64,000 nucleotides of DNA, taken from contig MGKI01000011.1 in the NCBI GenBank assembly GCA_001795615.1, positions 44,996 through 108,995 of the forward strand. The letters run 5' to 3'. The translations under genes and the position numbers were made by a program. How positions within the stretch are numbered: the stretch's first letter is position 1; every line of letters begins with the position of its first letter. Below the pieces are notes generated by a model, which was not told the origin of the DNA, searched no databases, and saw only the letters and a program-made list of their open reading frames with translations. The DNA is from Candidatus Yanofskybacteria bacterium RIFCSPLOWO2_01_FULL_42_49. GTDB lineage: Bacteria > Patescibacteriota > Minisyncoccia > 2-02-FULL-40-12 > GWA2-44-9. Positions 5,776 through 62,417 of the stretch are shown here, piece by piece.

Positions 5776-5984
5776 CACACAGAGTTAACAAAAACTCCAT
5801 GCAGCGCAAAACAACAAGTTGTTAAGGACCAATGAACGAGAGGAATCCCTCTCTAAAATTGGTGTTTTTATCTTCTCGAGAATCACGATAATCACGAGAC
5901 GAGATTCGCGAGAAAACAAATGCTACAGCCAATATATATATTATAACGCGCCTCGACATAGGGGCGCAAGCTCTAAATTTTAAA

Positions 5985-11008: not shown

Positions 11009-11542
11009 TTATAAACCAAAGGTTTTTAATAGTTCCTCCTCTTTAAAACCGGCGGACTGAGCGATCAGAATATCTATATAATCGCTCACGCCTAATCTAC
11101 CTGCAATGTCCGCAATTTCTTCCTCACACGGATAAGGAAAAATAAACACACTTTTTTGAATCATTTCAAACCCAAGCAACTTGATTTTCTTTCGAAAATT
11201 AACTCTTTCTTTATGCATCTCTTCCGGAATATCAAAAACGATTAACCGCCATTTTTTATCCCACTTGCCTCTAACTTTATTCTTAAAATATTTTTTTATA
11301 GAAGTATCAAGCCATTTTCGGCCTTTATTTGTAAAAACAAAACAGTCGTTATTTTTGTTTTTTATGATTCCCCGTCGCTCAAGATTTTTAAACCCCACAT
11401 ATTTTTTTCTAGTTTTGTAGCCATAAATATTAAAATCACTATATCTACAACCCTTATAAGGGATCCTGCTCCAGCCGATACCTATATCTCTGACAACATG
11501 GGCAAGTTCTGTTAAAAATTTAATTACAAAATCTCCTTTCAT
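11009..11542 (-). CDS. PaaX-family-like transcriptional regulator (C-terminal domain pattern W-x3-W-x-L-I-V-F-D-I-P-E…R…L…GF…Q-x-S-V-F).
   Basis: WDKKWRLIVFDIPEEMHKERVNFRKKIKLLGFEMIQKSVFIFPYP matches the PaaX C-terminal domain consensus. A Cas2-like fold is also possible. 177 aa. Confidence 0.45.
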   Translation of the reverse strand: MKGDFVIKFLTELAHVVRDIGIGWSRIPYKGCRYSDFNIYGYKTRKKYVGFKNLERRGIIKNKNNDCFVFTNKGRKWLDTSIKKYFKNKVRGKWDKKWRLIVFDIPEEMHKERVNFRKKIKLLGFEMIQKSVFIFPYPCEEEIADIAGRLGVSDYIDILIAQSAGFKEEELLKTFGL

Positions 11543-37773: not shown

Positions 37774-37821
37774 AACTACATTAAAATACCATTATTTTTT
37801 GTAATAAAAAAGTCTCCATTA

Positions 37822-39561
37822 TTAGAGACTTTGTGTCAACGGCACTTCAGAACCGCGAGCAAATATGTAGGCAGGAGTCATGTTGGCCCTCGAAAATAGG
37901 TGCCACCACGGATAAAGATCACGCAAACCTTTCTCAATAGAGAGAAAGATCTGCCTCACTTCGTGATTAACTGACGGTTTAGTTCTTTGCCAGTTACAAA
38001 ACTCATGCTGTCGCAAATTGGCTGAATAAATAAACCCAGCCCTAAAACCAATCGGCAGAATATACTGAGATATTACTGGCGGAACTTGATTTAATCCCAC
38101 ATAAACATTTTGGCTTGACTGTTTGGCGATTTGGAAACTTTTAGCAAGCTTAGGAGGCTGTGGTTTATCATACCGATAAAATCCGAGAGAGGGGGTCAAT
38201 AAAGTCCTCCGATGAGTAGACAGACCCTGACGATGCAAGTCGCGCCATCCTCTAAAAGACATCACCCCCACAAAGGGAACGGTGACTAACTCAAATTCTC
38301 GAGGCAACTTGTCGTGATCGTCGCGTCCGCCAATAAATAATTCCCCAACGATATCTCGAATGTCCAAAATACTCAGATGCTCGTCTTCTTCTCTAAAGAA
38401 AAATGCCTCTTCGATAATGTTTTTGGCTATTTCGTTCTTGGGAACAGTAATAAAGGGCACAATTCTTTCTAACCCGCCAAACAAGGTTAGCGGTATATGC
38501 TTCCACCCCCGTATTTCAGCATCCGAGGGTTGATAGTGACGAATGAACTGGTCTGCTCCGACTTTGCCTGCTTCCTGCAAAATCAATTCCACAAGCGCTA
38601 AATTTTCAGCCGTATCATCAAGAATAAGGTGTCTTAGAACAGACGGCAGTGACTCGCCACTAATCGCGGCGGCGACAGAAGTAAGGGTTGCTGCCGGAAG
38701 TAAGTTGCCTAAAATATCAAATGTTTCACCGGCAACACCAACTTCAACTTTGCCTCCATTCTCTTCGATCAACTTCCCCCATTTCTCTCTAAGAAAGTTA
38801 GGAAACAGACCGTTTAAATTATCGCCCAAGTTGTCTGCATAAAGAATAAACAGACTGTTTAGGTGATTTTGAATAACTGACGCGGATGTTCCTAATACTC
38901 GGAGTTCGTTATCAATTGGATATACTCCCGCTTTTTCTCTGTCGACAAATCTTGTCGACAGCTCAACATAACCGGCTCCGGGCCGCGTCCACTCAATTGA
39001 TTTAGCGGCAAGAATAGAAACATCCTCAAAACAGATCCATACCTCACCCATCCTGGCAATAGAGTTGTGGCCATATTGATCCAACCACATACCAAGAAAT
39101 TTTTTGGCTTTTTGCGAATCTGCCAACAGCCGAGTATATGCTTCTTCGGGGGCTTGAGACACAAACCACTCAAATTTAGACCTCGTTTCAGATGAGTAGG
39201 AAATAAAATCGCGCAGATTTTTTATTTCATGGTTCTTAAGAAATGGCTCAACATCGTCTTGGCTCGTGCATAAATTACTCACCAGAAGACCAGGCAAAAA
39301 AGAGTCGACAAAAACACCCCTGATTCCGCGTTTATTTTTAAGCCTGGAGAACATCGAGGCAAGCGTGGCCATTACATTAGAAGGCAAGGAATGCATAAAA
39401 AATACCCGTTGATCAATATTAGTAAAGAATGGTTTTAATGTTTTTTGTTCATCTCCTGAAAAAGAGTATCCGACTTTGGAATGAACAAACTCTCTAGCAA
39501 CCGAAACAAGAGCATCCTGCTTTTCTTTCGGCAGCACAGACAAGCCAAGACCTGTGTCCAT
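37822..39561 (-). CDS. Thy1/ThyX-family (flavin-dependent thymidylate synthase) homolog with tandem duplicated domains and degenerate catalytic motifs.
   Basis: Half 1: YGHNSIARMGEVWICFEDVSILAAKSIEWTRPGAGYVELSTRF versus ThyX GH-x-SV-x-EH…F-x-GVSR…QLVRHR-x-ASY-x-E-x-S-x-RY (AGYVELSTRF matches ASYNELSGRY). Half 2: …FVGVMSFRGWRDLHRQG…SLGFYRY. The RHR and E-H residues are substituted in both halves. 579 aa. Confidence 0.4.
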   Translation of the reverse strand: MDTGLGLSVLPKEKQDALVSVAREFVHSKVGYSFSGDEQKTLKPFFTNIDQRVFFMHSLPSNVMATLASMFSRLKNKRGIRGVFVDSFLPGLLVSNLCTSQDDVEPFLKNHEIKNLRDFISYSSETRSKFEWFVSQAPEEAYTRLLADSQKAKKFLGMWLDQYGHNSIARMGEVWICFEDVSILAAKSIEWTRPGAGYVELSTRFVDREKAGVYPIDNELRVLGTSASVIQNHLNSLFILYADNLGDNLNGLFPNFLREKWGKLIEENGGKVEVGVAGETFDILGNLLPAATLTSVAAAISGESLPSVLRHLILDDTAENLALVELILQEAGKVGADQFIRHYQPSDAEIRGWKHIPLTLFGGLERIVPFITVPKNEIAKNIIEEAFFFREEDEHLSILDIRDIVGELFIGGRDDHDKLPREFELVTVPFVGVMSFRGWRDLHRQGLSTHRRTLLTPSLGFYRYDKPQPPKLAKSFQIAKQSSQNVYVGLNQVPPVISQYILPIGFRAGFIYSANLRQHEFCNWQRTKPSVNHEVRQIFLSIEKGLRDLYPWWHLFSRANMTPAYIFARGSEVPLTQSL

Positions 39562-39650
39562 CTTCCCTCTTTATCAAAGAACGGTTTTTAAATGTTATCA
39601 AAAAACTTGTAAACAAAAAAGCCCTTCTGGGGGCTTGAGCGAAAAAGGTA

Positions 39651-40334
39651 TTATGACAACTTGATCCCGTTGGCGTTTAGAAGTTTTAACAATTCGCTTT
39701 TGACATCAGAGAATATCTCCTCAATGCTTCTGGACCCGTCAATAAAATGAAGATTTGCTTCCGGGTACTCGCGAGCAAAGATATAAAAATTTTCCCTTAC
39801 TCTTGCTAGCGTGTCTAGCCTTTCCATTTCGTCAAACGACCGACCCGACGCCTTGCCTCGTTCAATGGCCAGTTCAGGTGGTACATCAAAAATAAATACT
39901 TTGTCAGGCCACACCCAGTATCGGCGGTGGAGTTGTTGGTTCATTTCCATAAGCATGTGCAATTCAATAACATTGCCCTTTTCTGCTCCGTAAACCATCG
40001 ACTCCCTAAACCTGTCAGTGCAGACGATGTGTCCCGCTTCAAGACCAGGTATTACTTCCATCTCGCAATGCATCCGGCTGTCTTTGGCAAACAACTCTTG
40101 CAAATCAAACGGATCGGTTTGAGCAAACAATTGCTTGTCTCCCAAAATAGACCTTATCATCCTTCCAAAGCGTTGAGTAGTCGGTTGTTTTGTCCGCAGA
40201 ACCGCAATATTTTTATCTGCCAGATTGGCCCTCAACCAGTTGCATATCCTCAAAACCTGGCTTGACTTCCCACAGAAGTCGATACCACTGCCACACAAAA
40301 AAAGGCCACGATAGGGATTTTGTAAAACACCCAT
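39651..40334 (-). CDS. Divergent thymidylate-kinase-like P-loop nucleotide kinase.
   Basis: FLCGSGIDFCGKSSQ P-loop, LRTKQPT…GRMIRSIL, lid region HIVCTDRFRESMVYGAEKG, and DVPPELAIERGKASG…FDEMERL (Tmk architecture). A canonical tmk exists at 59920. Confidence 0.55.
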   Translation of the reverse strand: MGVLQNPYRGLFLCGSGIDFCGKSSQVLRICNWLRANLADKNIAVLRTKQPTTQRFGRMIRSILGDKQLFAQTDPFDLQELFAKDSRMHCEMEVIPGLEAGHIVCTDRFRESMVYGAEKGNVIELHMLMEMNQQLHRRYWVWPDKVFIFDVPPELAIERGKASGRSFDEMERLDTLARVRENFYIFAREYPEANLHFIDGSRSIEEIFSDVKSELLKLLNANGIKLS

Positions 40335-42098: not shown

Positions 42099-42392
42099 TT
42101 AACTGTCAATAGCCTTCTTCTGAACATCGGTGGCCAATAAATAACCTGAGCGAAAGTAGTATTTAAGATTTTCCAAAAAAGACATTCCGTCGTAAGGATA
42201 TAGTTTGCCGGGTTTCGCATTTTTGTAATCAAAAATTCCTTCTCCTTCTATGTTTTTTAAAACGGGGTGGTTTTCATCTCCGTCAATTTCAACTCTCCCC
42301 GGTTCATCGCCTTGCATTTTAAAAGTAGCAATCTTTCTTTGCTTTGCATCTTTGTCCAGTTCGTATAAGTCAACGAAATAAAATAAGGTCAT
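42099..42392 (-). CDS. Hypothetical protein (97 aa).
   Basis: ORF only. Overlaps the next gene by 4 nt. Confidence 0.4.
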   Translation of the reverse strand: MTLFYFVDLYELDKDAKQRKIATFKMQGDEPGRVEIDGDENHPVLKNIEGEGIFDYKNAKPGKLYPYDGMSFLENLKYYFRSGYLLATDVQKKAIDS

Positions 42393-43147
42393 ATCGAGAT
42401 TGTTCCGGTTTCCAATACCGTTGCCGCTATTTGCTTAACACCGGTTATAACTTTGATCAAGGTCGGTGTCACTGTTTCAACACCTATTTCTCTTGGGTCA
42501 ACCAGAAGCCGCTCTAAGGCCTCAACGAGCCTTCTCAATGGCTCTCTCGATTCGTCGTTAATTTCTGTCTTTAGCCCCCGGCGTTTAGCTTCACCTAACA
42601 TGTAATTATACTGATTCCATTCTTCCTTGGCATCTGCAAACATAAAATCATCATGGTCTGTGAGCCAAATTTTTTTAGTTCTTTCTAAAAAAATATTTGC
42701 TAATTTTCTGTCCGCTGCCTTTATCAGATGTTCAAAAAGTACCGCTCGAAATAATTCCTCGTCTGAAATTTCTCTTAAACAATCATCCTCAAGTTTCACG
42801 GCCGGTGTGGCTTCACCTAAAAACCGCTGCAAGGTTCCCTCTTCTTGATTAACCGTCCTCATTACGACTTCTGGGACGACTCCTAATTCTGCGGTTTTAC
42901 TGATAAGTCTCGCTAATAGCTCAAGTTGAACTCTTAATGGCCTTCCTCTGGCTTCGCTCTCTTTGGGCCTGAACAAACCCTTCCCGTCATCTCTAATTTC
43001 TACAACATCAAATCTCTCCGCTCCCTCAAGTGGCCGACTGTCAACAATCTCTCCTCTCTCCAAAACCGACTCAATATCAACTTCCGGACCTGTTTCCGGC
43101 TTTGTGACTGGAGCTTCATGTTTTTCGAAAGATTGACCCTCTGCCAT
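42389..43147 (-). CDS. Hypothetical acidic protein (about 252 aa from MAEGQ).
   Basis: ORF. The track's 69-nt N-terminal extension (MDSCLPAGRCLGF…) is translation of the intergenic palindromic repeat, so the start is placed at 43147. Confidence 0.45.
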   Translation of the reverse strand: MAEGQSFEKHEAPVTKPETGPEVDIESVLERGEIVDSRPLEGAERFDVVEIRDDGKGLFRPKESEARGRPLRVQLELLARLISKTAELGVVPEVVMRTVNQEEGTLQRFLGEATPAVKLEDDCLREISDEELFRAVLFEHLIKAADRKLANIFLERTKKIWLTDHDDFMFADAKEEWNQYNYMLGEAKRRGLKTEINDESREPLRRLVEALERLLVDPREIGVETVTPTLIKVITGVKQIAATVLETGTISI

Positions 43148-43335
43148 AAGTGGTAAAATCTCTAAATCCCAATCTCTAAATCCTAAACACCTGCCTGCCG
43201 GCAGGCAGGAATCCAAAATTCTCAGCCTGAGGCTGATCCGCCTCTGGCGGAAAATATTTAAACGGTTTTGAGCTTTGATATTTGGTTATTTGATATTGTT
43301 TAGAGTTTAGAAATTAGAGTTTAGGGTTTTCTGTT
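43148..43335. repeat. Composite intergenic element, copy 2, upstream of the hypothetical gene 42389..43147 and downstream of gyrB.
   Basis: Same about 150-nt sequence as copy 1 with a few substitutions. Confidence 0.85.
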
Positions 43336-50699: not shown

Positions 50700-51227
50700 T
50701 TATTCAAGCCACAACATCCCTCCGCGCCAGCCGGCGAGAAATTCTTTTTTAGAAACAACGTACCTGTTGCCTCTTTTGCCCGGATACGGATCGGCGATAT
50801 GATAGCCCAAGACAAATGGACCCAGCTTCTTTATTTTTTCTACGATGACCAAATGAGCCGTGTCGGACAAATTAAATTCTTTCAGGACTGAAACCGCAAC
50901 CGGTGATTTTAATATTGACAATTGATTATTGATCATTTTAATCCCCTCTTTTTTCTTTTCCGGGGTGTTGAAAAATTCTTTCTGGAAATTCATGGGTACT
51001 CCATATGAAGCGGCCAGATCCACCAGAGCTTGATGCTTCCAGCCGATATTTTTAATATAGCCGCCGGCATTGAAAGCTTGGCTTAATAAAGTCATAATCG
51101 GGATACTCTGAAATTTCTGATTTTTAAAAACCATCAGCATCTTAATAACACAAATCCCGCACGAGTGCTTGCTCCAACTTTCATCCCCAGCATCGGTAAT
51201 TTGATTTACAAGTTTAACTTCTGCCAT
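50700..51227 (-). CDS. Papain-like cysteine peptidase, C39-like domain.
   Basis: WSKHSCGICVIKMLM (catalytic Cys context of C39-like peptidases) with downstream His. 175 aa. Confidence 0.45.
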   Translation of the reverse strand: MAEVKLVNQITDAGDESWSKHSCGICVIKMLMVFKNQKFQSIPIMTLLSQAFNAGGYIKNIGWKHQALVDLAASYGVPMNFQKEFFNTPEKKKEGIKMINNQLSILKSPVAVSVLKEFNLSDTAHLVIVEKIKKLGPFVLGYHIADPYPGKRGNRYVVSKKEFLAGWRGGMLWLE

Positions 51228-51255
51228 TTATTCGTAATTCTTAATTCATAATTCG

Positions 51256-51801
51256 TTATTCCAGTTCGGGATGCCAATAAATTTTTTCTATTTTACGGGT
51301 GCCATTATAGGTATAGTGATGCTTATGCGGAAACCCTGTGCCTTTGGAATCGTTGCTTATCGCTTCCTGTCCGCTCCAAAAAAATCCAATATGATTGTGA
51401 GGCTCTCCGTCGTGGCCGTCTTTTTTCTCCCAAATTATTACAGCGCCAGGCTTGAGTTCTTTTATTTCGTACCAACCATTTTCAAGCAAATCTTTTTCGG
51501 TTGAAACGACGGTAAGGTGGATGTATTTAATCCAATGTTTCTTGCCCGTAAACTCCAACAGTGGGTTGAATGAGTAAAGAATGGACGACACCATAACCGC
51601 GCAGGAGTTCCTGCCGTTTTCAAGCGAATCTTCGATTTCCCCGCCCGCCCCGTAGTGTGATTTCGATTTATCTTTGCCGGAGGCATTCGAAATCTCTACT
51701 TCGGGGTGTTTTTCCACATAAAAATTCCTGAACAAATGGTTCTCGCCTTTTGCGGAATTTTCGATTTGAGTTAAATAATTTTTTTTTAACAACAACCTCA
51801 T
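51256..51801 (-). CDS. CHAP/NlpC-P60-like cysteine peptidase (putative cell-wall hydrolase). Carries the 65-nt in-frame palindromic insertion also present in gatB.
   Basis: NSCAVMVSSIL…GW…KPGAVIIW…HIGFFWSG Cys/His arrangement. Insertion is PEVEISNASGKDKSKSHYGAGG. Confidence 0.5.
   Translation of the reverse strand: MRLLLKKNYLTQIENSAKGENHLFRNFYVEKHPEVEISNASGKDKSKSHYGAGGEIEDSLENGRNSCAVMVSSILYSFNPLLEFTGKKHWIKYIHLTVVSTEKDLLENGWYEIKELKPGAVIIWEKKDGHDGEPHNHIGFFWSGQEAISNDSKGTGFPHKHHYTYNGTRKIEKIYWHPELE
51641..51704. repeat. 65-nt imperfect palindromic element, second copy, in frame in the CHAP-like peptidase gene.
   Basis: ccgcccgccccgtagtgtgatttcgatttatctttgccggaggcattcgaaatctctacttcgggg. Identical to the gatB copy apart from 3 nt and one codon. 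Confidence 0.8.
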
Positions 51802-51902
51802 ACTGATTAAAATTACTAAAACCTCGCCAGCGCGTCAATCAAACGTAAAGGGCATCTTTACAAAATGTAAAGATGCCCTTTACGCTACTAGCTTTAAATC
51901 TT

Positions 51903-53264
51903 TTACGGCTCGCAGGTTACTGTATATGTATAGGTGGCGGGGCCGGTGAGATTACCGGTTGAACGAGAGTTATCTGTTCCAGCCCAACCAGTTGGTGAAA
52001 CAGTACATTGAGATACATTTTGGGAGGACCAGTTGACTTTTGCGGAAGAATTATACGGGATTGAAGAAGGTTCGCAAGTTATTGAAACCGAAGGCTCTAA
52101 AACAGGAACTGTTGTTTGGGCAGTAGGGCTTGTTCCCCCCGGTCCGGTGCAAGTCAAAGTGTATGTTTGAGATGAAGTCAATGGTAGCGTGGTTCTTCTG
52201 GATAGAGGCACACCATTGGACGATGTTTCCACTGGTCCCTGCCAACCGGTTGTAGTGCCGCCGGCGGTACAGGAAGTGGCATCGGTTGAAGACCAAGTCA
52301 AAACAGAAGTACCGTTATATCGGACACTAGCCGGAGAAGCAGAAATAGATGCGGTCGGCCGAGCTGGCTGAATTACCGCAACTGACCTTTCTTTAAGATC
52401 CGACCCTCCGGGTCCTTCGCATCTGACTCCAAAAGTAGTCGGATCAGCGGTCAGACCGCCCGTAGTGGTTGAAGAGTACCCGCTGGTACCAAGCCACTGT
52501 CCGCTCCAAGTGGGCCAGTTACCCGTACCCCAACAGCCGGTTACATTACCACTGACTGACCACGAAACCGTAACATTTTCCCCCCTGTTAACCCTTGACG
52601 GACTGACGGAAACAGAAACCGACGGAGGCGATGGTTCTTGAACCTTAACCGTTGTACTGGCCAAAGTCGATCCGCCTGATGAATTATAGCAAGTTATATC
52701 ATAAGTTTTAGTTATGGTTAAATTTCCGGTCGTTGTGTCATAATTAGCAGGAATCTGGACTCCTTGCGGGCTCCAGTTTTGGCCAGTGACACAATAACTG
52801 GCATTGGAACGAACATGAAGACCTGTGGATGTGTTGTATGGGATCGAAGAAGAATCAGGATAGAAATTGACGGTCGGAGGTGGCTGGTTTTGGTTCCATG
52901 TCACATAATAACCCCTTTCTTTGCCGTTTCTATTAGACACCCAGCCTTCTGGATCTACTTTATTAAAAGTGTAGCCTGGTACAGAATTTAAGTCTACTAT
53001 AATAGTCCAATCTCCTTCTTCCATGCCGTACCAATAATAACGGACGGAATACGAACCCCACTGGTTAAGGCATTGATACCAGCTGTCTTCCCTATACCCC
53101 GAAGGGGTTTCCCCTTTGGCCATTAAAGTGTAGCAAAAATTGGGCACGTTGCCGCTGATAGTAACTCCTCCCGGGTTATACGCTTTTGCGTCCTCGGCCA
53201 GCATAAAAAAACAGGCTAAAATAAAGGTTGTAAAAACAATCAGTTTTAGTTTCATTTTATTCAT
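51903..53264 (-). CDS. Secreted/surface protein with signal peptide and three to four tandem Ig-like beta-sandwich repeats, Ser/Thr/Gly-rich.
   Basis: MNKMKLKLIVFTTFILACFFMLAEDAKA signal. Repeated …PS-x-S-x-S-x-SP-x-V-x3-(N/T)-x-(V/L)-x-W-S-(S/V)-x5-C… modules. Confidence 0.6.
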   Translation of the reverse strand: MNKMKLKLIVFTTFILACFFMLAEDAKAYNPGGVTISGNVPNFCYTLMAKGETPSGYREDSWYQCLNQWGSYSVRYYWYGMEEGDWTIIVDLNSVPGYTFNKVDPEGWVSNRNGKERGYYVTWNQNQPPPTVNFYPDSSSIPYNTSTGLHVRSNASYCVTGQNWSPQGVQIPANYDTTTGNLTITKTYDITCYNSSGGSTLASTTVKVQEPSPPSVSVSVSPSRVNRGENVTVSWSVSGNVTGCWGTGNWPTWSGQWLGTSGYSSTTTGGLTADPTTFGVRCEGPGGSDLKERSVAVIQPARPTASISASPASVRYNGTSVLTWSSTDATSCTAGGTTTGWQGPVETSSNGVPLSRRTTLPLTSSQTYTLTCTGPGGTSPTAQTTVPVLEPSVSITCEPSSIPYNSSAKVNWSSQNVSQCTVSPTGWAGTDNSRSTGNLTGPATYTYTVTCEP

Positions 53265-56762: not shown

Positions 56763-57398
56763 CTACTCCGATGTTCTAAGAAATGTCACCTCCCATTCTA
56801 GCACCTGATGCGACAGTACATTCCTCAAAGCGCTAATAAGAATGGGGGGTTTTGTTTCGGGGGCGCTAGGAGGGAACCCCCGAAATACAAGCACGTGAAC
56901 GAAGCTGAAGGTGGTATCTTGTCTTACTGATACCCCCACCGCCAGAGTCGCTGGATTCTCTTGTCTCCAGTCTCCAACCCTCCTAACCCACTGACCACCG
57001 AATCCGTGTGTGAGCACATCTCTCTCTTGAGAGACTGCCGTAACTACGCCCACATACTCCGAATCCGACATACCGTCGAACAAGAGCCAGACTGTCAACA
57101 AGGCTATCTGGCCTTTCTCGATAACTCCACCATTCGGGGTTATCATCTGAATCCTCTGAATTTCAGCGGTACCACCCCCGGGTGAAGGCGAAGTGGGTCC
57201 GCTATCGCACCCGGCAAGGACAAGCCCCGCCAGCGCGATCAGCATCACGGCCAAAATCGGCCACAGATCGACGAACACGAACTTCGTGTTGCCGATACGT
57301 CGAATGGCGAATCCCGCCGAAGAGCGTCGTGCACGAGTTGCCCCAAAAGTCATTGTTCTTCTCCTTGTTGTCGAGCTTGACTCGACAGTAAATGTCAA
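56763..57398 (-). CDS. Putative lipoprotein (lipobox LAGC) in a GC-rich (about 55% versus about 40%) island. Likely start is the internal M at 57353.
   Basis: …RRIGNTKFVFVDLWPILAVMLIALAGLVLAGCDSGPTSPSPGGG signal plus lipobox. Local GC is clearly above the flanks. Has its own terminator. Confidence 0.5.
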   Translation of the reverse strand: MTFTVESSSTTRRRTMTFGATRARRSSAGFAIRRIGNTKFVFVDLWPILAVMLIALAGLVLAGCDSGPTSPSPGGGTAEIQRIQMITPNGGVIEKGQIALLTVWLLFDGMSDSEYVGVVTAVSQERDVLTHGFGGQWVRRVGDWRQENPATLAVGVSVRQDTTFSFVHVLVFRGFPPSAPETKPPILISALRNVLSHQVLEWEVTFLRTSE

Positions 57399-57497
57399 CG
57401 ATCGATCCTTACATCTTAATCATACCATAAAACACCCACAAAAGTCAAGCAAAAAATTCCTAGGAATTTTGGATATGAAAACGGCCTTATCGGGCCG

Positions 57498-58454
57498 TTA
57501 CTTTAGCTTAATTCTCAAAAGCAACTGAACAGAGGAAGGGCTGTTTTTAAACAAGAGCTCATCTTCTCTGTCAAAATTAAAACGCCCCTTCAACACAAAT
57601 CTTAGTCTGTCTGCGCGCAATAGCGGAACCGCCTCCAAAGATCCCTCCGCCGCAAGATCGTCGAATCTGTTTAGTCCATATGTATTTTCATCCCAGAACA
57701 TAAAGACTTTTTCGTAAAAACTTTTTTCAACTCGCATTCTATAACTGAACCGTTTCAAAAAATCTATTCTTCCGTCTGTCGCCACAAAAAAGGTTCTGTA
57801 CTGATCGTCATAAAGAGGAAGCGGCCCAACATCTCTAAACGAAGCTATGTAAACCTCCTGGCTTTCGGTCCATATATACCCACCGCCTACCCTTATCGCC
57901 AGATACCTGTCGTTGAGATCTCCAAATTTTGCACCACCCCAGCCTCGACTGCCATAAGACAATCTTTCAAAGTCAGCATTGAACTGAATACCATTGATGA
58001 TCGATAACGCTTTTTCCTGCTCAACAAATCCTCCTATTCCAAATAAAAACCCGCCCAAACTTTCTTCACCGGAAAACTTAAAAGACTTATTGTTTCTTAC
58101 ATTGACGCCATCATCGGAATAAGAAAACCCGCCGGAAACATCAACTGCATAGTCAACCCCTTCAAATCTTACACTTGGATTGGGCCAAACCACCGAAATT
58201 TGATCCTCCCAAGGATCTCTCAATGTTCCAAGGTTGACAGACCTATCCTGAATCCTGCCTATATCCACACTTCTTTCAAAAGGAAGAAGTGGGATATCCA
58301 AAAAAATGGCTTTCTTTTTTTTGACCTTAACAGGTTCGGACGGTTGGGAAGGTTGATCAGCCACAACCGGTTCCGGCTCTTTTTCCTGAGCAAGGACACT
58401 CGAACCCGAAAAAATTAAAAACATAGCAAAAACTAAGCACAACCCCTGCTTCAT
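57498..58454 (-). CDS. Secreted hypothetical protein (signal peptide; Gly/aromatic-rich).
   Basis: MKQGLCLVFAMFLIFSGSSVLAQE signal. Terminator aacggccttatcgggccgtt overlaps the stop. 318 aa. Confidence 0.55.
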   Translation of the reverse strand: MKQGLCLVFAMFLIFSGSSVLAQEKEPEPVVADQPSQPSEPVKVKKKKAIFLDIPLLPFERSVDIGRIQDRSVNLGTLRDPWEDQISVVWPNPSVRFEGVDYAVDVSGGFSYSDDGVNVRNNKSFKFSGEESLGGFLFGIGGFVEQEKALSIINGIQFNADFERLSYGSRGWGGAKFGDLNDRYLAIRVGGGYIWTESQEVYIASFRDVGPLPLYDDQYRTFFVATDGRIDFLKRFSYRMRVEKSFYEKVFMFWDENTYGLNRFDDLAAEGSLEAVPLLRADRLRFVLKGRFNFDREDELLFKNSPSSVQLLLRIKLK

Positions 58455-58549
58455 TAGACTTCCTTTTAAAGAGCTATGCCCCTAGAGTTAACATTTGATG
58501 CCTGAAAAATCAAATCCCGTACCATGGTACGGGAATAAAAATGTTATCT

Positions 58550-59782
58550 TTACCGGAAAAAATTTCGAAGTATTTCCAGTCTAACTGTGCCGCAACCCAC
58601 GAACCGGCCGGGCGCATCCCTGGTCTCAGACAAACATTGAGATTCAATCACCGCTGCCCCCTCCGGAAGCTCACTATAAATAACAAACGGTCCGCTATCA
58701 TAGATACGACGCGTCATGCCATCTTTGATCAGCTCGGCATGAAGCTCAACTTCTCCTCTTTCTCTAGCATACATAACTGTTTTGTCTGGTCTATTCGCTA
58801 TTTTGGAGTCGTCGTAAGCTGCCTGAAATGTCGGAATAATCAAATATCTCTTTCCGGCAGATTGAGAAAGTCCGTCTAAATATCTCCTCCAACTGTAAGA
58901 ATTGCGGGCATATTCGTGAATTCTGGCCACATAACTTTTAGTGTCGTCTGCCAGCGAGTAGTCCATAAATCCGTCCAAGCTTTTTATTCTGTTTTTATCA
59001 TCCTCTCTTTCGGGAAAAGCCCGCATTCCTTCCGAACCGATAAAAAACACGGGGTAATCTTTTTTCGCTTCTTCAAGAAGACTAGCAAAATCTCCAACCA
59101 TCTGTATCGATGACCACATATATATAACGGCTCGACCGTTTACGGTGACATATCTCGACTGATAGGGCATAATCACATTTTTAAACATAAAATCTATATC
59201 TTCCTTAAACACTTGGCGATTGCGCGGATCATTCATGTTTTTTGGTCCGCCGTCTGAAGGATTATACCTGGTACCGTAGATATGCTCGTAGAGAAGAAAG
59301 AATGGCCCGCATCCACTGGCAAAATTATTGCTTAACCAGTAATTGTGATCATAGTGACTGGGGTTGGGGTTATACTCAAGAACAGCCGCTCCGCCACCAA
59401 ACTCTTTGATCTGCCGGCATTGTTCCATAACTTGAAAGGGCGAAGGTCTTTGATTGGGAGTCCAAAGCCGTGAAATCGGATGAACCGCAGCTTCATGTGG
59501 AGAATAGTCCCACGGATAAGTGTTAGCAAACCAGCCTTGAATTGTTGTCAGTTCAACGCCGCCAATCACACTGGGGGTGCTTAAGGCCATCTCCGAAGCG
59601 GAAGTAACACCCAAAATATCACCCGCAATTTCTTTGGCTTCATCGATAGGATTTGCCGCATCACCCCGGTTTTCTGTCGAAACAGAAGACGGACTTAGGG
59701 GAAATGTCTCGTCACAACTTTCGCAGCCCGGAATAGACGATACGGCAAGCACAAATACTGACATCATGACAGACTTATACAT
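58550..59782 (-). CDS. Putative lipoprotein (…SSIPGC), possibly a glycoside-hydrolase-like TIM-barrel enzyme.
   Basis: MYKSVMMSVFVLAVSSIPGCESC lipobox. 410 aa. No confident family assignment. Confidence 0.4.
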   Translation of the reverse strand: MYKSVMMSVFVLAVSSIPGCESCDETFPLSPSSVSTENRGDAANPIDEAKEIAGDILGVTSASEMALSTPSVIGGVELTTIQGWFANTYPWDYSPHEAAVHPISRLWTPNQRPSPFQVMEQCRQIKEFGGGAAVLEYNPNPSHYDHNYWLSNNFASGCGPFFLLYEHIYGTRYNPSDGGPKNMNDPRNRQVFKEDIDFMFKNVIMPYQSRYVTVNGRAVIYMWSSIQMVGDFASLLEEAKKDYPVFFIGSEGMRAFPEREDDKNRIKSLDGFMDYSLADDTKSYVARIHEYARNSYSWRRYLDGLSQSAGKRYLIIPTFQAAYDDSKIANRPDKTVMYARERGEVELHAELIKDGMTRRIYDSGPFVIYSELPEGAAVIESQCLSETRDAPGRFVGCGTVRLEILRNFFR

Positions 59783-59919: not shown

Positions 59920-60552
59920 GTGAGCACAAAAGGGGTTTTGGTCGCAATCGAAGGAATAGATGGTTCGGGAAAATCCACCCAATGCAAGCTCTTGAAAGAA
60001 CGCCTTGAGAAAGCCGGCTTTCCCGCCACCATTGTTAAGGCGAAGAACGATAAACAAGGTCGTGTTTTTAAAAATTTCCTGAGTGTTTTCGGAATTACAG
60101 CCGATTCAGTTTCTTTCACACTGCTTTATCAAGCGTTACACCGCCGGCAATTTGAAATCGCTCGGAACGAACTTGGTAAAAAACATATTGTCGTCGCCGA
60201 TCGATGGAACCCTTCATTTTTTGTTTTTCATAACCTTTATGGCCTCCTGGCTGATAAACCCCAAATCAGAGAGTCTCTCGACAAACTAGCGTTTGAAAAT
60301 CTCAGGCCGGACATATGCTTCCTTTTAAATGTTCCAGTGAAAGTGTCTTTCACGAGAAGGTCTGGCCGAAAAAATGAACCGGAACGAGAACCAAGCCCAG
60401 ACAGATTGGAGTTTTATGAGAAAATAGCTGCAGAGTATTTGCGGCTTGCATCTAGAGAAGGGTGGGTGGTTATTGACGCTAATTTGCCAATATCAGAAAT
60501 ACATCGACAAATAATGGGGACAGTCGAAAACATATTGCTCAAAAGAAATTAG
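59920..60552 (+). CDS. tmk: Thymidylate kinase (canonical). GTG start.
   Basis: VLVAIEGIDGSGKSTQCKLLKERLEKAGF…DRW… Tmk signatures. 210 aa. Confidence 0.8.
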   Translation: MSTKGVLVAIEGIDGSGKSTQCKLLKERLEKAGFPATIVKAKNDKQGRVFKNFLSVFGITADSVSFTLLYQALHRRQFEIARNELGKKHIVVADRWNPSFFVFHNLYGLLADKPQIRESLDKLAFENLRPDICFLLNVPVKVSFTRRSGRKNEPEREPSPDRLEFYEKIAAEYLRLASREGWVVIDANLPISEIHRQIMGTVENILLKRN

Positions 60553-60589
60553 TACTAACACCGGGGGCATGGGCCCCTGTTTTACTATA

Positions 60590-61141
60590 ATGAACAACCA
60601 CGGAAAAGTTATTTTTATAGAGGGGATATGGGGCAGTGGAAAGACGGCCCTTGTTAAAGTACTCAAAAAATCTTTAGACGGGAGAACTGTAACTCTAAAA
60701 GAACCCAATCACCTTACCAGTCTTAAAAAGGCTTCCCCCGAAAAAATCACGAACTGGTATCTTCGGGCCCACCACAAAAACATTCGAAGAGCCATCAGCT
60801 TGTCGAGCGATAACGACACCGTACTGACAGAGCGCTCCCCTATTTCCTCAATATCTTTTATGCGGGCCTATCTTAACAAAGACTCGAGGGGTTTAGAAAA
60901 GAATATGATCCGTCTGGAAACCGAGCTTGGCCGAATATTAAAATTAACCGGCAAAAAGGCGGTCATCGTTTATCTCAACCACAACCTAGACAGGACCTTG
61001 GCAAAATTGCATTCTAAAGCACACCTTAAACACCTAGACTCAGTCGACTCGCTTATGATCCTTGCTAAAAGCACGAGAGAATTTTTAGCAAGATTAAACA
61101 AGAGGGGCATAATAGACTTAATAATTTTAAAAAATGAGTAG
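60590..61141 (+). CDS. Deoxynucleoside-kinase-like P-loop NTPase.
   Basis: VIFIEGIWGSGKTALVKVL Walker A, and ERSPISS (dNK-like ERS motif). Start taken at MNNHGK. Confidence 0.5.
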   Translation: MNNHGKVIFIEGIWGSGKTALVKVLKKSLDGRTVTLKEPNHLTSLKKASPEKITNWYLRAHHKNIRRAISLSSDNDTVLTERSPISSISFMRAYLNKDSRGLEKNMIRLETELGRILKLTGKKAVIVYLNHNLDRTLAKLHSKAHLKHLDSVDSLMILAKSTREFLARLNKRGIIDLIILKNE

Positions 61142-62417
61142 CGAAATAATTTTATATTCTGCGTCAGCTTTCTTTGTGTTTCTGGGACTTTTGAATTCTT
61201 TTAAGGTCTCCCATTCGCTGGCCCACATCAAAAAACAGCAAAAGAATCTTGCGGCCAAAAAAGCAGAATACTGCCCGGATGTTTTTGTGCTTATCCCTGT
61301 CCTTAGAGAAGCAAAAATTATAGGAAACTCCCTCGAAAATTTTTCCCGGTTAAAGTACCCCGCAGACAAGCTTAATATCGTTGTGGTAACGACTGAAAAA
61401 GAGCACGAGACTTTCTCCGAGCCGGATACCCCAGAAGTCGTCAAAACCAAAATAACTTTACTTAATAAGAGGCTCGAAAGAGAAGCTTTTCTGCATATCC
61501 ACTATCCTAATAAAGACGGGGTTAAATCTGACCAGCTAAACTATGCGATAGAAAAGCTTTCTCAAAAATTTCCGTCGCGTTTTCAAGACAATACTTACAT
61601 CGGAGTCTACGACGCCGATTCGTCCACAAACGACGATGTCATTGAGTTGCTAGCCGCAGATGGTTCCGTTAACGGCTGGGCCGACGCTTATCAGCAACCG
61701 ACGCTATATATCAAGAATCATCCCGGTGGAAATATTTTGGCTGGTTCTTTTTCATTACTGCAAACTGCTTTTGCTTTTTACCACGAAAACTACAACCTCA
61801 TCACCGCTTCAAAAATGCGCTATCTTATCGGACACGGTTTATTTGTTAAATGGTCTTCGTTAAAAGAAGCCGGACTTTTCCCTACACCGGTAGAAGATAC
61901 CCGCCTGGGTCACATTTTTTCATATCTAAAAAAGGATATCCGTCTCCTTCCGTCTTTTGATACCGTAGAAACTGCTCCGAGAATAACGGCCAGGATAAGA
62001 CAGGCGTCGGTGTGGTTTATCGGAGAGAGTTATTTCTGGATGGATCGGAAAATAGCTACAAAAATTAAACCTATTCCAAGTTTACGGATACTTTGGCTGG
62101 GAACATATAAACTTTATAGAAACGCGGTCTGGATGTTTCGTGGTGGAATTTTATTGATACTACTGGCTTTGTTGATTTATAAATTCGGCCCGATTGCGCT
62201 CCTGCCTCCCCTAATCTACCTGACATTACCGATTGTCATACTCATATCTAAACTTGACCAGATAAATGTGAGCTGGCCGAAAATATTATTTTCTCTTCTT
62301 CTTTCACCGGTAGAATTTTTATTCATGTCTCTGGGGCCGCTAGTCGGATTTATAAAAACAAGCATCTTCAGATCTGACAATAAAAATTTCTTGTTTCCCA
62401 AGACAGAAAGAGTGTGA
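61134..62417 (+). CDS. Membrane glycosyltransferase family 2 (processive synthase-like; multiple C-terminal TM helices).
   Basis: VLIPVLREAKIIGNSLEN…VVVTTEKE…YDADSS GT2 motifs plus C-terminal TM helices. 427 aa. Confidence 0.65.
   Translation: MSSEIILYSASAFFVFLGLLNSFKVSHSLAHIKKQQKNLAAKKAEYCPDVFVLIPVLREAKIIGNSLENFSRLKYPADKLNIVVVTTEKEHETFSEPDTPEVVKTKITLLNKRLEREAFLHIHYPNKDGVKSDQLNYAIEKLSQKFPSRFQDNTYIGVYDADSSTNDDVIELLAADGSVNGWADAYQQPTLYIKNHPGGNILAGSFSLLQTAFAFYHENYNLITASKMRYLIGHGLFVKWSSLKEAGLFPTPVEDTRLGHIFSYLKKDIRLLPSFDTVETAPRITARIRQASVWFIGESYFWMDRKIATKIKPIPSLRILWLGTYKLYRNAVWMFRGGILLILLALLIYKFGPIALLPPLIYLTLPIVILISKLDQINVSWPKILFSLLLSPVEFLFMSLGPLVGFIKTSIFRSDNKNFLFPKTERV

What the first reader, a model, noticed from the sequence alone, without database searches (positions are those of the whole stretch)
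37822..40334. A tandem-domain ThyX-like protein with degenerate catalytic motifs sits next to a divergent Tmk-like kinase, while a canonical tmk exists elsewhere
The 579-aa protein shows two Thy1/ThyX-like halves: GH-x-S…E-x-V-S…R-x3-(A/S)-(G/S)-Y-x-E-L-S-x-R-(F/Y), and …GV-x-S-F-R…LHR-x-G…S-x3-YRY. However, the RHR arginines and the E-H pair are substituted in both halves. The neighbouring gene is a divergent P-loop kinase with Tmk architecture (FLCGSGIDFCGKSS…DRFRES). A standard tmk (59920..60552) and a dNK-like kinase (60590..61141) are also present. Either this is an atypical thymidylate-synthesis pair, or it is a nucleotide-modifying module. Phage and bacterial hydroxymethylase-plus-kinase systems use the same two folds.
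Basis: inference. Interest (0 to 1): 0.5.

Follow-up and report, generated by a model that had tools for sequence, protein, structure and literature searches.

The report
Fused double-domain ThyX thymidylate synthase
This gene most likely encodes the thymidylate (DNA "T") synthase of an ultra-small CPR bacterium, built from two fused, specialised ThyX copies that seem to share one set of catalytic residues; it is largely ordinary housekeeping, except that this clade has replaced the residues that normally hold the flavin cofactor.

Summary
ORF 37822..39561(-) encodes a 579-aa protein made of two ThyX-fold halves, and the ThyX signature motif is incomplete in each half. ORF 39651..40334(-) is a thymidylate kinase (Tmk).

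The motif loss is complementary rather than random. By alignment, half 2 keeps the residues that canonical ThyX draws from "subunit A" (R78, R174). Half 1 keeps those drawn from "subunits B and C" (T55, R74, S88, R90, Y91). One composite site per chain therefore remains plausible. This is an alignment-based inference, because no model coordinates were available.

The same split occurs in a very large domain-duplicated ThyX family found in DPANN archaea, Tectomicrobia and some phages. A 2009 paper noted a duplicated ThyX in Chloroflexi as uncharacterised.

All 41 genome loci of the window's clade are Patescibacteria. The clade lies in a conserved nusG-rplK-tmk-thyX-gatB block, and dCTP deaminase or thymidine kinase genes join it in other genomes. 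This points to dTTP synthesis, not DNA modification.

Phage hydroxymethylases use the ThyA fold, not the ThyX fold.

One feature is unusual. Only the CPR clade has replaced the canonical flavin-phosphate ligands (H79, R80, R165) together.

Verdict: a new variant of a known kind, of moderate interest.

The parts
37822..39561 (-). Gene for the 579-aa domain-duplicated ThyX of the CPR-specific clade. A GAGGGA Shine-Dalgarno-like sequence lies before the ATG.
38527..39444 (-). ThyX half 1 (residues ~40-345). By alignment it keeps H165 (=Tm H53), S167 (T55), K187 (R74), one Arg of RHR (R193), and E200/S202/R204/F205 (E86/S88/R90/Y91). N163, R165 and R174 are replaced by S301, E303 and H311, with D315 also acidic.
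   Evidence: hhalign against canonical ThyX, E=7e-13. Residue frequencies in 151 clade members. The register of the C-terminal helix is uncertain by about one turn (disagree).
39127..39315 (-). Helical insertion in half 1 (residues ~83-145). It is absent from canonical ThyX and is not matched in most other tandem ThyX proteins.
   Evidence: Most tier-2 proteins match the profile only from about position 105-145 onward; a few longer ones match from about 24. Helices are predicted with high pLDDT. No separate fold match was found.
38947..39003 (-). Half-1 remnant of the ThyX motif, KSIEWTRPGAGYVELSTRF. It is the inferred dUMP loop ('subunit C' role).
   Evidence: Translation. K187, S202 and R204 are invariant in 151/151; Y/F205 in 149/151. 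Roles of S88, R90 and Y91 are taken from PMC8316439 and PMC6514825.
37825..38511 (-). ThyX half 2 (residues 351-579). By alignment it keeps E424 (E58), R440 (R74), R444 (R78), N515 (N163), R517 (R165) and R526 (R174). It lacks the S-x-R-Y loop.
   Evidence: hhalign against canonical ThyX, E=2.7e-15. Residue frequencies.
38203..38253 (-). Half-2 motif RGWRDLHRQGLSTHRRT. The R-D-L-Q-R core is shared with all tandem ThyX proteins. The RHR triad is reduced to R444-Q-G in this clade, with clade-specific invariant H450 and R452.
   Evidence: Translation. Comparison of 151 CPR-clade with 78 other tandem ThyX sequences.
37954..38019 (-). Half-2 segment NLRQHEFCNWQRTKPSVNHEVR. It carries N515, R517 and the invariant R526 (= Tm R174, the dUMP-activating arginine).
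   Evidence: Translation. PDB profile alignment. R526 is 151/151. Role of R174 from PMC8316439.
39651..40334 (-). tmk (here TmkA), a thymidylate kinase directly upstream of thyX on the same strand.
   Evidence: PF02223 4.6e-23 and TIGR00041 89.3 bits, above cut-off. Best PDB match is T. maritima Tmk 3hjn, 6e-16. A Tmk homologue lies within 3 kb of thyX in 18 of 41 other CPR genomes.
39619..39636 (-). Terminator-like hairpin followed by a T-run, between tmk and thyX. A second one lies at 37809..37832 after thyX.
   Evidence: Consensus scan only. Sequence read. Function not shown.
59920..60552 (+). Second Tmk-family paralogue (TmkB). It is not part of the conserved thyX block.
   Evidence: PF02223 7.4e-25 and TIGR00041 84.9 bits. 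phrog_761 2e-30 and PADLOC candidate PDC-M51B 1.3e-11. It lacks the EPGGT and AYQ motifs.
60569..61141 (+). dNK-like P-loop kinase immediately downstream of TmkB.
   Evidence: Pfam dNK 6.5e-8, 33 bits against cut-off 27. ORF.

Best explanation
The 579-aa protein is a domain-duplicated, flavin-dependent thymidylate synthase (ThyX) of a clade specific to Patescibacteria (CPR).

Shown: it consists of two ThyX-fold domains fused in one chain.

Inferred from alignment and from published subunit assignments in canonical ThyX: the catalytic residues have been divided between the two halves.
- Canonical ThyX is a homotetramer, and each active site draws on three subunits.
- Half 2 supplies the 'subunit A' residues: R444 (=R78) and R526 (=R174, which activates dUMP). 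Half 2 also keeps N515 and R517.
- Half 1 supplies the 'subunit C' dUMP loop: K187 (=R74), E200, S202, R204 and F/Y205 (lid).
- Half 1 also supplies the 'subunit B' serine S167 (=T55) and H165 (=H53).
- A dimer of chains would then form a pseudo-tetramer with two composite active sites instead of four. The reciprocal sites are remodelled.

Inferred from family membership: the enzyme methylates dUMP to dTMP using CH2-THF and a reduced flavin.

Shown: a Tmk homologue lies within 3 kb of thyX in about half of the CPR genomes examined. Inferred: this upstream Tmk phosphorylates dTMP to dTDP. In other CPR genomes dCTP deaminase and thymidine kinase genes join the same cluster, so the block is the dTTP branch of deoxynucleotide metabolism.
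For: Fold and duplication:
- Pfam Thy1 passes its threshold.
- The AF2 model has pLDDT 92.
- Half 1 matches Tm ThyX at 7e-13, half 2 at 2.7e-15, and the halves match each other at 2.5e-7.

Residue partition:
- The key residues are invariant or nearly so in 151 clade members.
- Subunit origin in canonical ThyX comes from two papers. In one review, RHR and R199(Mtb)=R174(Tm) come from subunit A, S71/R190 (=T55/R165) from B, and R87/S105/R107/Y108 (=R74/S88/R90/Y91) from C (PMC6514825). In PBCV-1 ThyX, Q75 and R182 come from monomer A, and S88 and Q89 from monomer B (PMC3498832).
- Catalytic roles of R174, S88, R90 and Y91 are described in PMC8316439.

Same split in a wider family:
- At least 7,925 other tandem ThyX proteins share the split.
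- So do jumbo phage Tunturi_5 gp50, which lies beside dCMP deaminase and dUTPase, and Microcystis phage LMM01 thymidylate synthase.
- Most Chloroflexi are reported to have only a duplicated ThyX (PMC3224940).

Genomic context:
- The order nusG-rplK-tmk-thyX-gatB is conserved.
- A Tmk homologue lies within 3 kb in 18 of 41 species-level CPR loci. dCTP deaminase-like genes occur in 7 and thymidine kinase in 3.
- No other thymidylate synthase turned up among the window ORFs of 150 aa or more that were scanned or identified from the same contig.
- There are no PADLOC or PHROG hits for the protein.
Against: - No activity, cofactor or oligomer data exist for any member of this clade.
It rests on profile alignments, and their register in half 1 is uncertain by 1-4 residues (disagree locally).
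- The CPR clade lacks H79 and R80 in both halves and has E303 in place of half-1 R165. These are the canonical flavin-phosphate and ribityl ligands (PMC6514825). Canonical FAD binding is therefore not assured.
- R147 (a dUMP phosphate ligand, from my own knowledge) has no Arg equivalent in either half.
- I could not survey whole CPR genomes for thyA or single-domain thyX, so 'sole thymidylate synthase' is not shown.
- A terminator-like hairpin lies between tmk and thyX.
Confidence: 0.68

Rival explanations
1. Same scaffold and same uracil-nucleotide substrate, but cofactor use has been rewired in the CPR clade. Examples would be FMN instead of FAD, FAD bound in a new pose through the clade-specific H450, R452 and R437, or a loosely bound flavin. 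The enzyme would still make dTMP but would not be a canonical FAD-dependent ThyX.
For: Only the CPR clade changes H445/R446 (RHR to R-[QM]-[GS]) together with half-1 K279E, N301S, R303E, K311H and position 315 to D. It also gains invariant R437, H450 and R452. All 78 other tandem ThyX representatives keep RHR, and most keep N301, R303 and K311. H79, R80 and R165 are the residues reported to bind the FAD phosphates and ribityl (PMC6514825). All dUMP ligands are kept.
Against: This is purely sequence inference. Compensating basic residues could simply restore FAD binding. H165 (=H53) and S167 (=T55) are retained. No structure with a ligand exists.
Confidence: 0.2
2. A nucleotide-modifying module. 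The ThyX-like protein would make a modified pyrimidine nucleotide (a hydroxymethyl or other C5 adduct, or act on UMP or dCMP as PolB acts on UMP). The adjacent Tmk-like kinase would phosphorylate the product for incorporation into DNA.
Against: Known dUMP and dCMP hydroxymethylases are ThyA-family, not ThyX-family (PMC8989533). The gene lies in a housekeeping block (nusG, rplK, gatB, miaA) conserved across CPR lineages. Recurrent nucleotide-metabolism neighbours are dcd and tdk, with no glycosyltransferase, DNA-modification or restriction genes. There are no PADLOC hits. The adjacent kinases in other CPR genomes have canonical Tmk motifs.
Confidence: 0.06
3. A catalytically dead pseudoenzyme retained for a structural or regulatory role, with dTMP obtained only by salvage through thymidine kinase.
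For: No half has a complete ThyX motif. CPR bacteria are salvage-dependent symbionts, thymidine kinase genes occur next to some orthologues, and a dNK-like kinase is present in the window.
Against: Every residue known to contact or activate dUMP is strictly conserved across 151 sequences that are only 34-65% identical overall. That pattern is expected for an active site. The wider tandem family is reported as the only thymidylate synthase in most Chloroflexi (PMC3224940).
Confidence: 0.05

Closest known systems
Canonical single-domain ThyX / FDTS (PF02511; T. maritima TM0449, M. tuberculosis, H. pylori and PBCV-1 enzymes)
   Different: There are two domains in one chain. No single domain has the RHRxxSxxxxSxR signature. 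H79 and R80 are absent from both halves. At most two composite sites per four domains are expected. Half 1 carries a helical insertion of about 60 residues. Direct sequence similarity is marginal: phmmer against the PDB found nothing, and the clade profile reached only E~0.01.
Domain-duplicated ThyX of DPANN archaea, Tectomicrobia, Chloroflexi and some phages (about 500-550 aa; 'tier 2' here)
   Same: The architecture and the division of labour are the same. Half 1 has a single Arg plus E-x-S-T-R-Y. Half 2 has the R-D-L-Q-R core plus N..R..R. These proteins are annotated as FAD-dependent thymidylate synthase.
   Different: Tier 2 keeps an intact RHR in half 2 (H 74/78, R 76/78) and K279, N301, R303 and K311 in half 1. 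The CPR clade has R-[QM]-[GS], E279, S301, E303, H311 and D315, plus new R437, H450 and R452. Most tier-2 proteins are not matched over the CPR clade's N-terminal insertion. The two groups score only 130-170 bits against each other, compared with more than 300 bits within the clade.
PolB, the UMP/dUMP C5-methylase of polyoxin biosynthesis (a ThyX homologue; PDB 4p5a/4p5b)
   Different: PolB is a single-domain protein found in a secondary-metabolite cluster. The window's gene lies in a housekeeping and dTTP context. PolB-specific substrate loops were not examined here.
Bacterial thymidylate kinase (TIGR00041; T. maritima 3hjn, T. thermophilus 5x7j) - comparison for the neighbouring gene
   Same: Full-length match with Walker A G-x4-G-K-S and a D-R-F motif.
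   Different: The P-loop reads G-S-G-I-D-F-C-G-K-S instead of E-G-x-D-G-x-G-K-[ST]. The EPGGT motif seen in the adjacent-type kinases is KQPTTQ here. Orthologues next to thyX in other CPR genomes are more canonical.

Membership tests
ThyX / Thy1 (PF02511, flavin-dependent thymidylate synthase) | Sequence profile score above the curated threshold | tested here: met
   41.3 bits against 24.8, two stretches. No NCBIfam model matched.
ThyX / Thy1 (PF02511, flavin-dependent thymidylate synthase) | ThyX fold | tested here: met
ThyX / Thy1 (PF02511, flavin-dependent thymidylate synthase) | Contiguous ThyX signature RHRxxSxxxxSxR within one domain | tested here: not met
   Half 1 has R193-P-G...S202-x-R204. 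Half 2 has R444-Q-G with no S-x-R.
ThyX / Thy1 (PF02511, flavin-dependent thymidylate synthase) | Complete set of dUMP-contacting and activating residues (R74, R78, S88, R90, Y91, R174) converging on one site | tested here: inconclusive
   All have conserved alignment equivalents: K187, S202, R204 and F/Y205 from half 1; R444 and R526 from half 2. This matches the published subunit origins. Convergence in 3D could not be checked because no coordinates or multimer model were available.
ThyX / Thy1 (PF02511, flavin-dependent thymidylate synthase) | FAD phosphate and ribityl ligands H79, R80 (subunit A) and R165 (subunit B) | tested here: not met
   Q/M445 and G/S446 in half 2, P194 and G195 in half 1, and E303 in half 1. 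Only half-2 R517 is kept, in 110/151 (ligand roles from PMC6514825).
ThyX / Thy1 (PF02511, flavin-dependent thymidylate synthase) | dUMP to dTMP activity with CH2-THF, NADPH and flavin; tetrameric assembly | not testable with these tools
   No experimental data were found for this clade. A 2009 paper called the duplicated form uncharacterised (PMC3224940).
Domain-duplicated ThyX | Two ThyX domains in one polypeptide, with the dUMP loop only in half 1 and the R-D-L-Q-R core plus the R174 equivalent in half 2 | tested here: met
   The same pattern is seen in phage Tunturi_5 gp50.
Domain-duplicated ThyX | Intact RHR triad in half 2, and N163/R165 equivalents in half 1 | tested here: not met
   Other tandem ThyX: H 74/78, R 76/78, N 62/78, R 56/78. 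CPR clade: H 8/151, R 0/151, S 145/151, E 151/151.
Thymidylate kinase (TIGR00041 / PF02223) - neighbouring gene | Score above the equivalog cut-off; Walker A; DR[YFH] motif | tested here: met
   89.3 bits against 83.25. GIDFCGKS and DRF motifs, and a full-length alignment to 3hjn.
Thymidylate kinase (TIGR00041 / PF02223) - neighbouring gene | Specificity for dTMP | not testable with these tools
   The EPGGT-like segment is KQPTTQ. No assay is available.
Phage/bacterial dNMP hydroxymethylase + dNMP kinase modules | The hydroxymethylase is a ThyA-family (classical thymidylate synthase) homologue | tested here: not met

The most novel reading that the evidence does not exclude
The CPR clade of duplicated ThyX may have rebuilt its flavin-binding site. 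It has lost together the three canonical ligands of the FAD phosphates and ribityl: H79 and R80 of 'subunit A', and R165 of 'subunit B'. It has reversed the charge of the corresponding half-1 surface (E279, E303, D315). It has also gained invariant R437, H450 and R452 in half 2. If the ADP-binding part of the pocket is really gone, this would be a thymidylate synthase that works with FMN or with an exchangeable flavin. That could be an adaptation of cofactor-scavenging, ultra-small symbionts.
Probability: 0.2. Interest if true: 0.6.

Novelty: new variant of a known kind. Interest (0 to 1): 0.38.

Why it matters
- Thymidylate synthesis is essential, and ThyX is studied as an antimicrobial target. 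I found no biochemical or structural study of any domain-duplicated ThyX in the literature searched.
- The analysis gives a concrete and testable rule for why the ThyX motif looks broken in these proteins: the residues are split between two fused domains.
- It also identifies a Patescibacteria-specific clade in which the flavin-phosphate ligands were replaced together.
- For genome annotation, these genes should be called thymidylate synthase rather than pseudo-ThyX or hypothetical protein. The thyX-adjacent kinase, not the distal one, is the conserved tmk.
- Otherwise the locus is ordinary housekeeping.

Tried and rejected
- A single-sequence search of the PDB found nothing relevant. The clade-only profile gave only E~0.01 to Tm ThyX. 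Clade-only hhalign was weak (E 1e-3 to 1e-4) and the halves did not match each other (E=0.58). Significance appeared only after the other tandem ThyX proteins were added.
- My first register for half 2 (R444 = R80) was wrong. It was corrected to R444 = R78 once the tier-2 RHR motif was seen.
- The afdb50 fold library was unavailable.
- Model coordinates are not exposed, so I could not measure distances or test the composite site in 3D.
- Literature searches for ThyX in Patescibacteria/CPR or for 'tandem/fused ThyX' returned nothing specific, apart from one 2009 remark on a duplicated, uncharacterised ThyX in Chloroflexi.
- From memory, Chlamydia trachomatis ThyX is about 529 aa and was characterised biochemically by Griffin et al. 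(2005). I could not verify this: the paper is not held, no Chlamydia sequence could be retrieved, and Leduc et al. (2004) was also not held.
- The genome-contig scan uses clade-specific peptide patterns, so its all-Patescibacteria result does not show that the clade is absent elsewhere.
- A defence or phage origin for the ThyX protein was rejected because PADLOC and PHROGs gave no hits.
- I looked for thyA or another thyX in the window and found none among the ORFs of 150 aa or more that were scanned or identified from the same contig.
Full report
**What is there**

The minus strand carries a 579-aa ORF at 37822..39561 and, 89 bp upstream, a 227-aa ORF at 39651..40334. They sit between rplK/nusG/secE on one side and gatB and miaA on the other. 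The 579-aa protein is 100% identical to a 'hypothetical protein' of a Candidatus Yanofskybacteria MAG, a member of the Patescibacteria/CPR.

It passes the Pfam Thy1 (ThyX) threshold with two matched stretches. The neighbour passes both the Pfam and the NCBIfam dTMP-kinase models. A second Tmk homologue lies at 59920..60552 and a dNK-like P-loop protein at 60569..61141.

**Fold and duplication**

An AlphaFold2 model built on 53 homologues is confident (pLDDT 92.2, pTM 0.92). The strand and helix elements of residues 173-334 recur in residues 427-549.

Sequence evidence from the clade alone is weak. With a profile that also includes other tandem ThyX proteins, it becomes strong:
- Half 1 matches T. 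maritima ThyX at E=7e-13.
- Half 2 matches it at E=2.7e-15.
- The two halves match each other at E=2.5e-7.

**The motif loss is complementary**

I mapped residues to T. maritima numbering. Conservation was counted in 151 clade members whose identity to the window protein ranges from about 34% to 79%.

| T. maritima residue | Half 1 | Half 2 |
|---|---|---|
| H53 | H165 (151/151) | alignment uncertain (R413 or H416) |
| T55 | S167 (151/151) | not conserved |
| E58 | R170 | E424 (149/151) |
| R74 | K187 (151/151) | R440 (151/151) |
| RHR triad (R78-H79-R80) | one Arg only: R193-P-G | R444-[QM]-[GS] (R444 = R78, 151/151) |
| E86 / S88 / R90 / Y91 | E200 / S202 / R204 / Y-F205 | loop absent |
| N163 | S301 | N515 |
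| R165 | E303 (151/151) | R517 (110/151) |
| R174 | H311 (D315 also acidic) | R526 (151/151) |

The register of the half-1 C-terminal helix is uncertain by about one turn (disagree).

Published structures say where these residues come from in the canonical homotetramer:
- The RHR triad and R174 come from 'subunit A'.
- T55 and R165 come from 'subunit B'.
- R74, S88, R90 and the Y91 lid come from 'subunit C'.

These assignments are from PMC6514825. They agree with PBCV-1 ThyX, where Q75 and R182 come from one monomer and S88 and Q89 from another (PMC3498832). R174 activates dUMP, and S88, R90 and Y91 assist methylene transfer (PMC8316439).

Half 2 has therefore kept the A role, and half 1 the B and C roles. 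A dimer of chains could rebuild two complete dUMP sites. The reciprocal sites lack both R174 and the S-x-R-Y loop.

This is an inference from alignment.

**The split is shared by a very large family**

A full scan of 1.84 billion representative proteins with the clade profile found 2,289 relatives. Below the CPR clade (more than 300 bits) lies a second tier at 130-170 bits. These are proteins of about 480-560 aa matched in two stretches.

The second tier comes from Woesearchaeota, Micrarchaeota, Tectomicrobia and others, and where named it is called FAD-dependent thymidylate synthase. At least 7,925 such proteins exist.

They show the same division of labour:
- Half 1 has a single Arg plus E-K-S-T-R-Y.
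- Half 2 has G-A-Y-R-D-L-Q-R-H-R-M, with an intact RHR and no S-x-R-Y loop, plus N..R..R.

Tandem forms also occur in phages:
- Jumbo phage Tunturi_5 encodes a 518-aa version beside dCMP deaminase and dUTPase.
- Microcystis phage LMM01 thymidylate synthase (491 aa) matches the model over 490 alignment columns.

Valas and Bourne (2009) noted that most Chloroflexi have only a domain-duplicated ThyX that 'has not been characterized' (PMC3224940). I found nothing later on it.

From memory, Chlamydia ThyX is also double-length and was shown to be active. I could not verify this here.

**What is special about the CPR clade**

All 41 loci recovered from species-representative genomes are Patescibacteria. 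The scan used clade-specific peptide patterns, so this does not show absence elsewhere.

Compared with all 78 other tandem representatives, the clade has coordinated and near-invariant substitutions:
- Half 2: RHR becomes R-[QM]-[GS].
- Half 1: K279E, N301S, R303E, K311H, and position 315 becomes D.
- Half 2 gains R437, H450 and R452.
- The clade also carries a helical insertion of about 60 residues in half 1.

The lost H79, R80 and R165 are the residues reported to bind the FAD phosphates and ribityl. Every dUMP ligand is kept. This suggests that flavin binding was rewired rather than that catalysis was lost. It is the most interesting open point.

**Context**

The order nusG-rplK-tmk-thyX-gatB recurs in distant CPR lineages. 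Within 3 kb of thyX in the 41 loci:
- A Tmk homologue is present in 18, mostly directly upstream on the same strand.
- dCTP deaminase-like genes are present in 7.
- Thymidine kinase is present in 3.
- Other recurrent neighbours are gatB, groES/groEL and lemA.

This is a dTTP-pathway and housekeeping context. No DNA-modification, glycosyltransferase or restriction genes recur, and PADLOC and PHROGs gave no hit for the ThyX protein.

A paper on groundwater Patescibacteria states that dTMP synthesis belongs to their minimal biosynthetic repertoire (PMC12455944). No other thymidylate synthase turned up among the window ORFs of 150 aa or more that were scanned or identified from the same contig. 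The rest of the genome could not be inspected.

Terminator-like hairpins lie between tmk and thyX and after thyX. Co-transcription is therefore not established.

**The kinases**

Both Tmk paralogues sit just above the equivalog cut-off (89.3 and 84.9 bits against 83.25). Both match solved thymidylate kinases about equally.

The thyX-adjacent copy has an unusual P-loop (GIDFCGKS). However, its positional orthologues in other CPR genomes have the EGxDGxGK[ST]T, EPGGT and DR[FY]..S..AYQ motifs.

The distal copy has a canonical P-loop but lacks EPGGT and AYQ. It scores much higher against a phage Tmk family (2e-30 against 2e-15) and hits a candidate defence protein, PDC-M51B.

If either copy is the core tmk, it is the one next to thyX.

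Known dUMP and dCMP hydroxymethylases belong to the classical ThyA family (PMC8989533). The statement that hydroxymethylase-plus-kinase systems 'use the same two folds' therefore fails for the ThyX fold. PolB shows that the ThyX scaffold can change substrate range. Nothing in the context points that way here.

**Verdict**

This is a real feature and is largely explained. It is a domain-duplicated ThyX whose 'degenerate' motifs reflect a division of catalytic residues between two fused domains. It is paired with tmk in the dTTP branch.

It is a new variant of a known but experimentally unstudied kind, and the variant trait is the concerted replacement of the flavin-phosphate ligands. Confidence in the thymidylate-synthase reading is about 0.7. 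Interest is moderate.

Noticed in passing
window 59920..61141 (+): The second Tmk paralogue (TmkB) and an adjacent dNK-like P-loop kinase form a pair. TmkB has a canonical P-loop but lacks the EPGGT and AYQ motifs. It matches phage Tmk family phrog_761 at 2e-30 and the PADLOC candidate defence protein PDC-M51B at 1.3e-11. It may be an accessory or horizontally acquired dNMP-kinase module with different specificity.
   Followed up: partly
window 1..5784 (-): A stop-free reading frame of more than 1,928 codons runs off the window start. The region has higher GC (0.48-0.49 over 1..4000) than the rest of the window. This is presumably a giant protein. No rRNA is present despite the GC shift.
   Followed up: partly
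L049:2360-3916 (Tunturiibacter phage Tunturi_5, PP885688.1 46471..48027): A jumbo phage encodes a 518-aa domain-duplicated ThyX with the same half-1/half-2 motif split and an intact RHR in half 2. It lies beside dCMP deaminase and dUTPase. Microcystis phage LMM01 has a 491-aa counterpart.
   Followed up: partly
loci L012, L020, L026, L045 (about 370-aa ORFs upstream of tmk-thyX); L008, L016, L042 (about 225-aa ORFs): Two different dCTP-deaminase-like proteins recur next to tmk-thyX in CPR genomes: a long DCD_N+DCD_C form and a short Dcd form. In L042 the short Dcd lies between tmk and thyX.
   Followed up: partly
window 39619..39636 (-) and 37809..37832 (-): GC-rich hairpins followed by T-runs lie between tmk and thyX and just after thyX. 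If functional, tmk, thyX and gatB would be separate or attenuated transcription units.
   Followed up: no
window 11009..11542 (-): A 177-aa protein has a PaaX central Cas2-like domain (6.6e-24) and a weak CRISPR_Cas2 match. No CRISPR context was examined.
   Followed up: no
window 50700..53264 (-), 56763..59782 (-), 61134..62417 (+), 42389..43216 (-): Several ORFs of 175-453 aa have no Pfam match at E<=1e-5. The predicted multi-pass membrane protein at 61134..62417 lies directly after the TmkB/dNK pair and before a class I methyltransferase and a NUDIX hydrolase.
   Followed up: no
BFVD hit A0A127AWA5 (Bacillus phage SP-15 'thymidylate synthetase', 413 aa): A weak full-length structural match (E=5.3e-4, TM 0.25/0.34) to a ThyX-like protein. 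From my own knowledge this phage has DNA with hypermodified uracil. It is a possible lead for ThyX-fold enzymes in base modification and is unrelated to the window's context.
   Followed up: no
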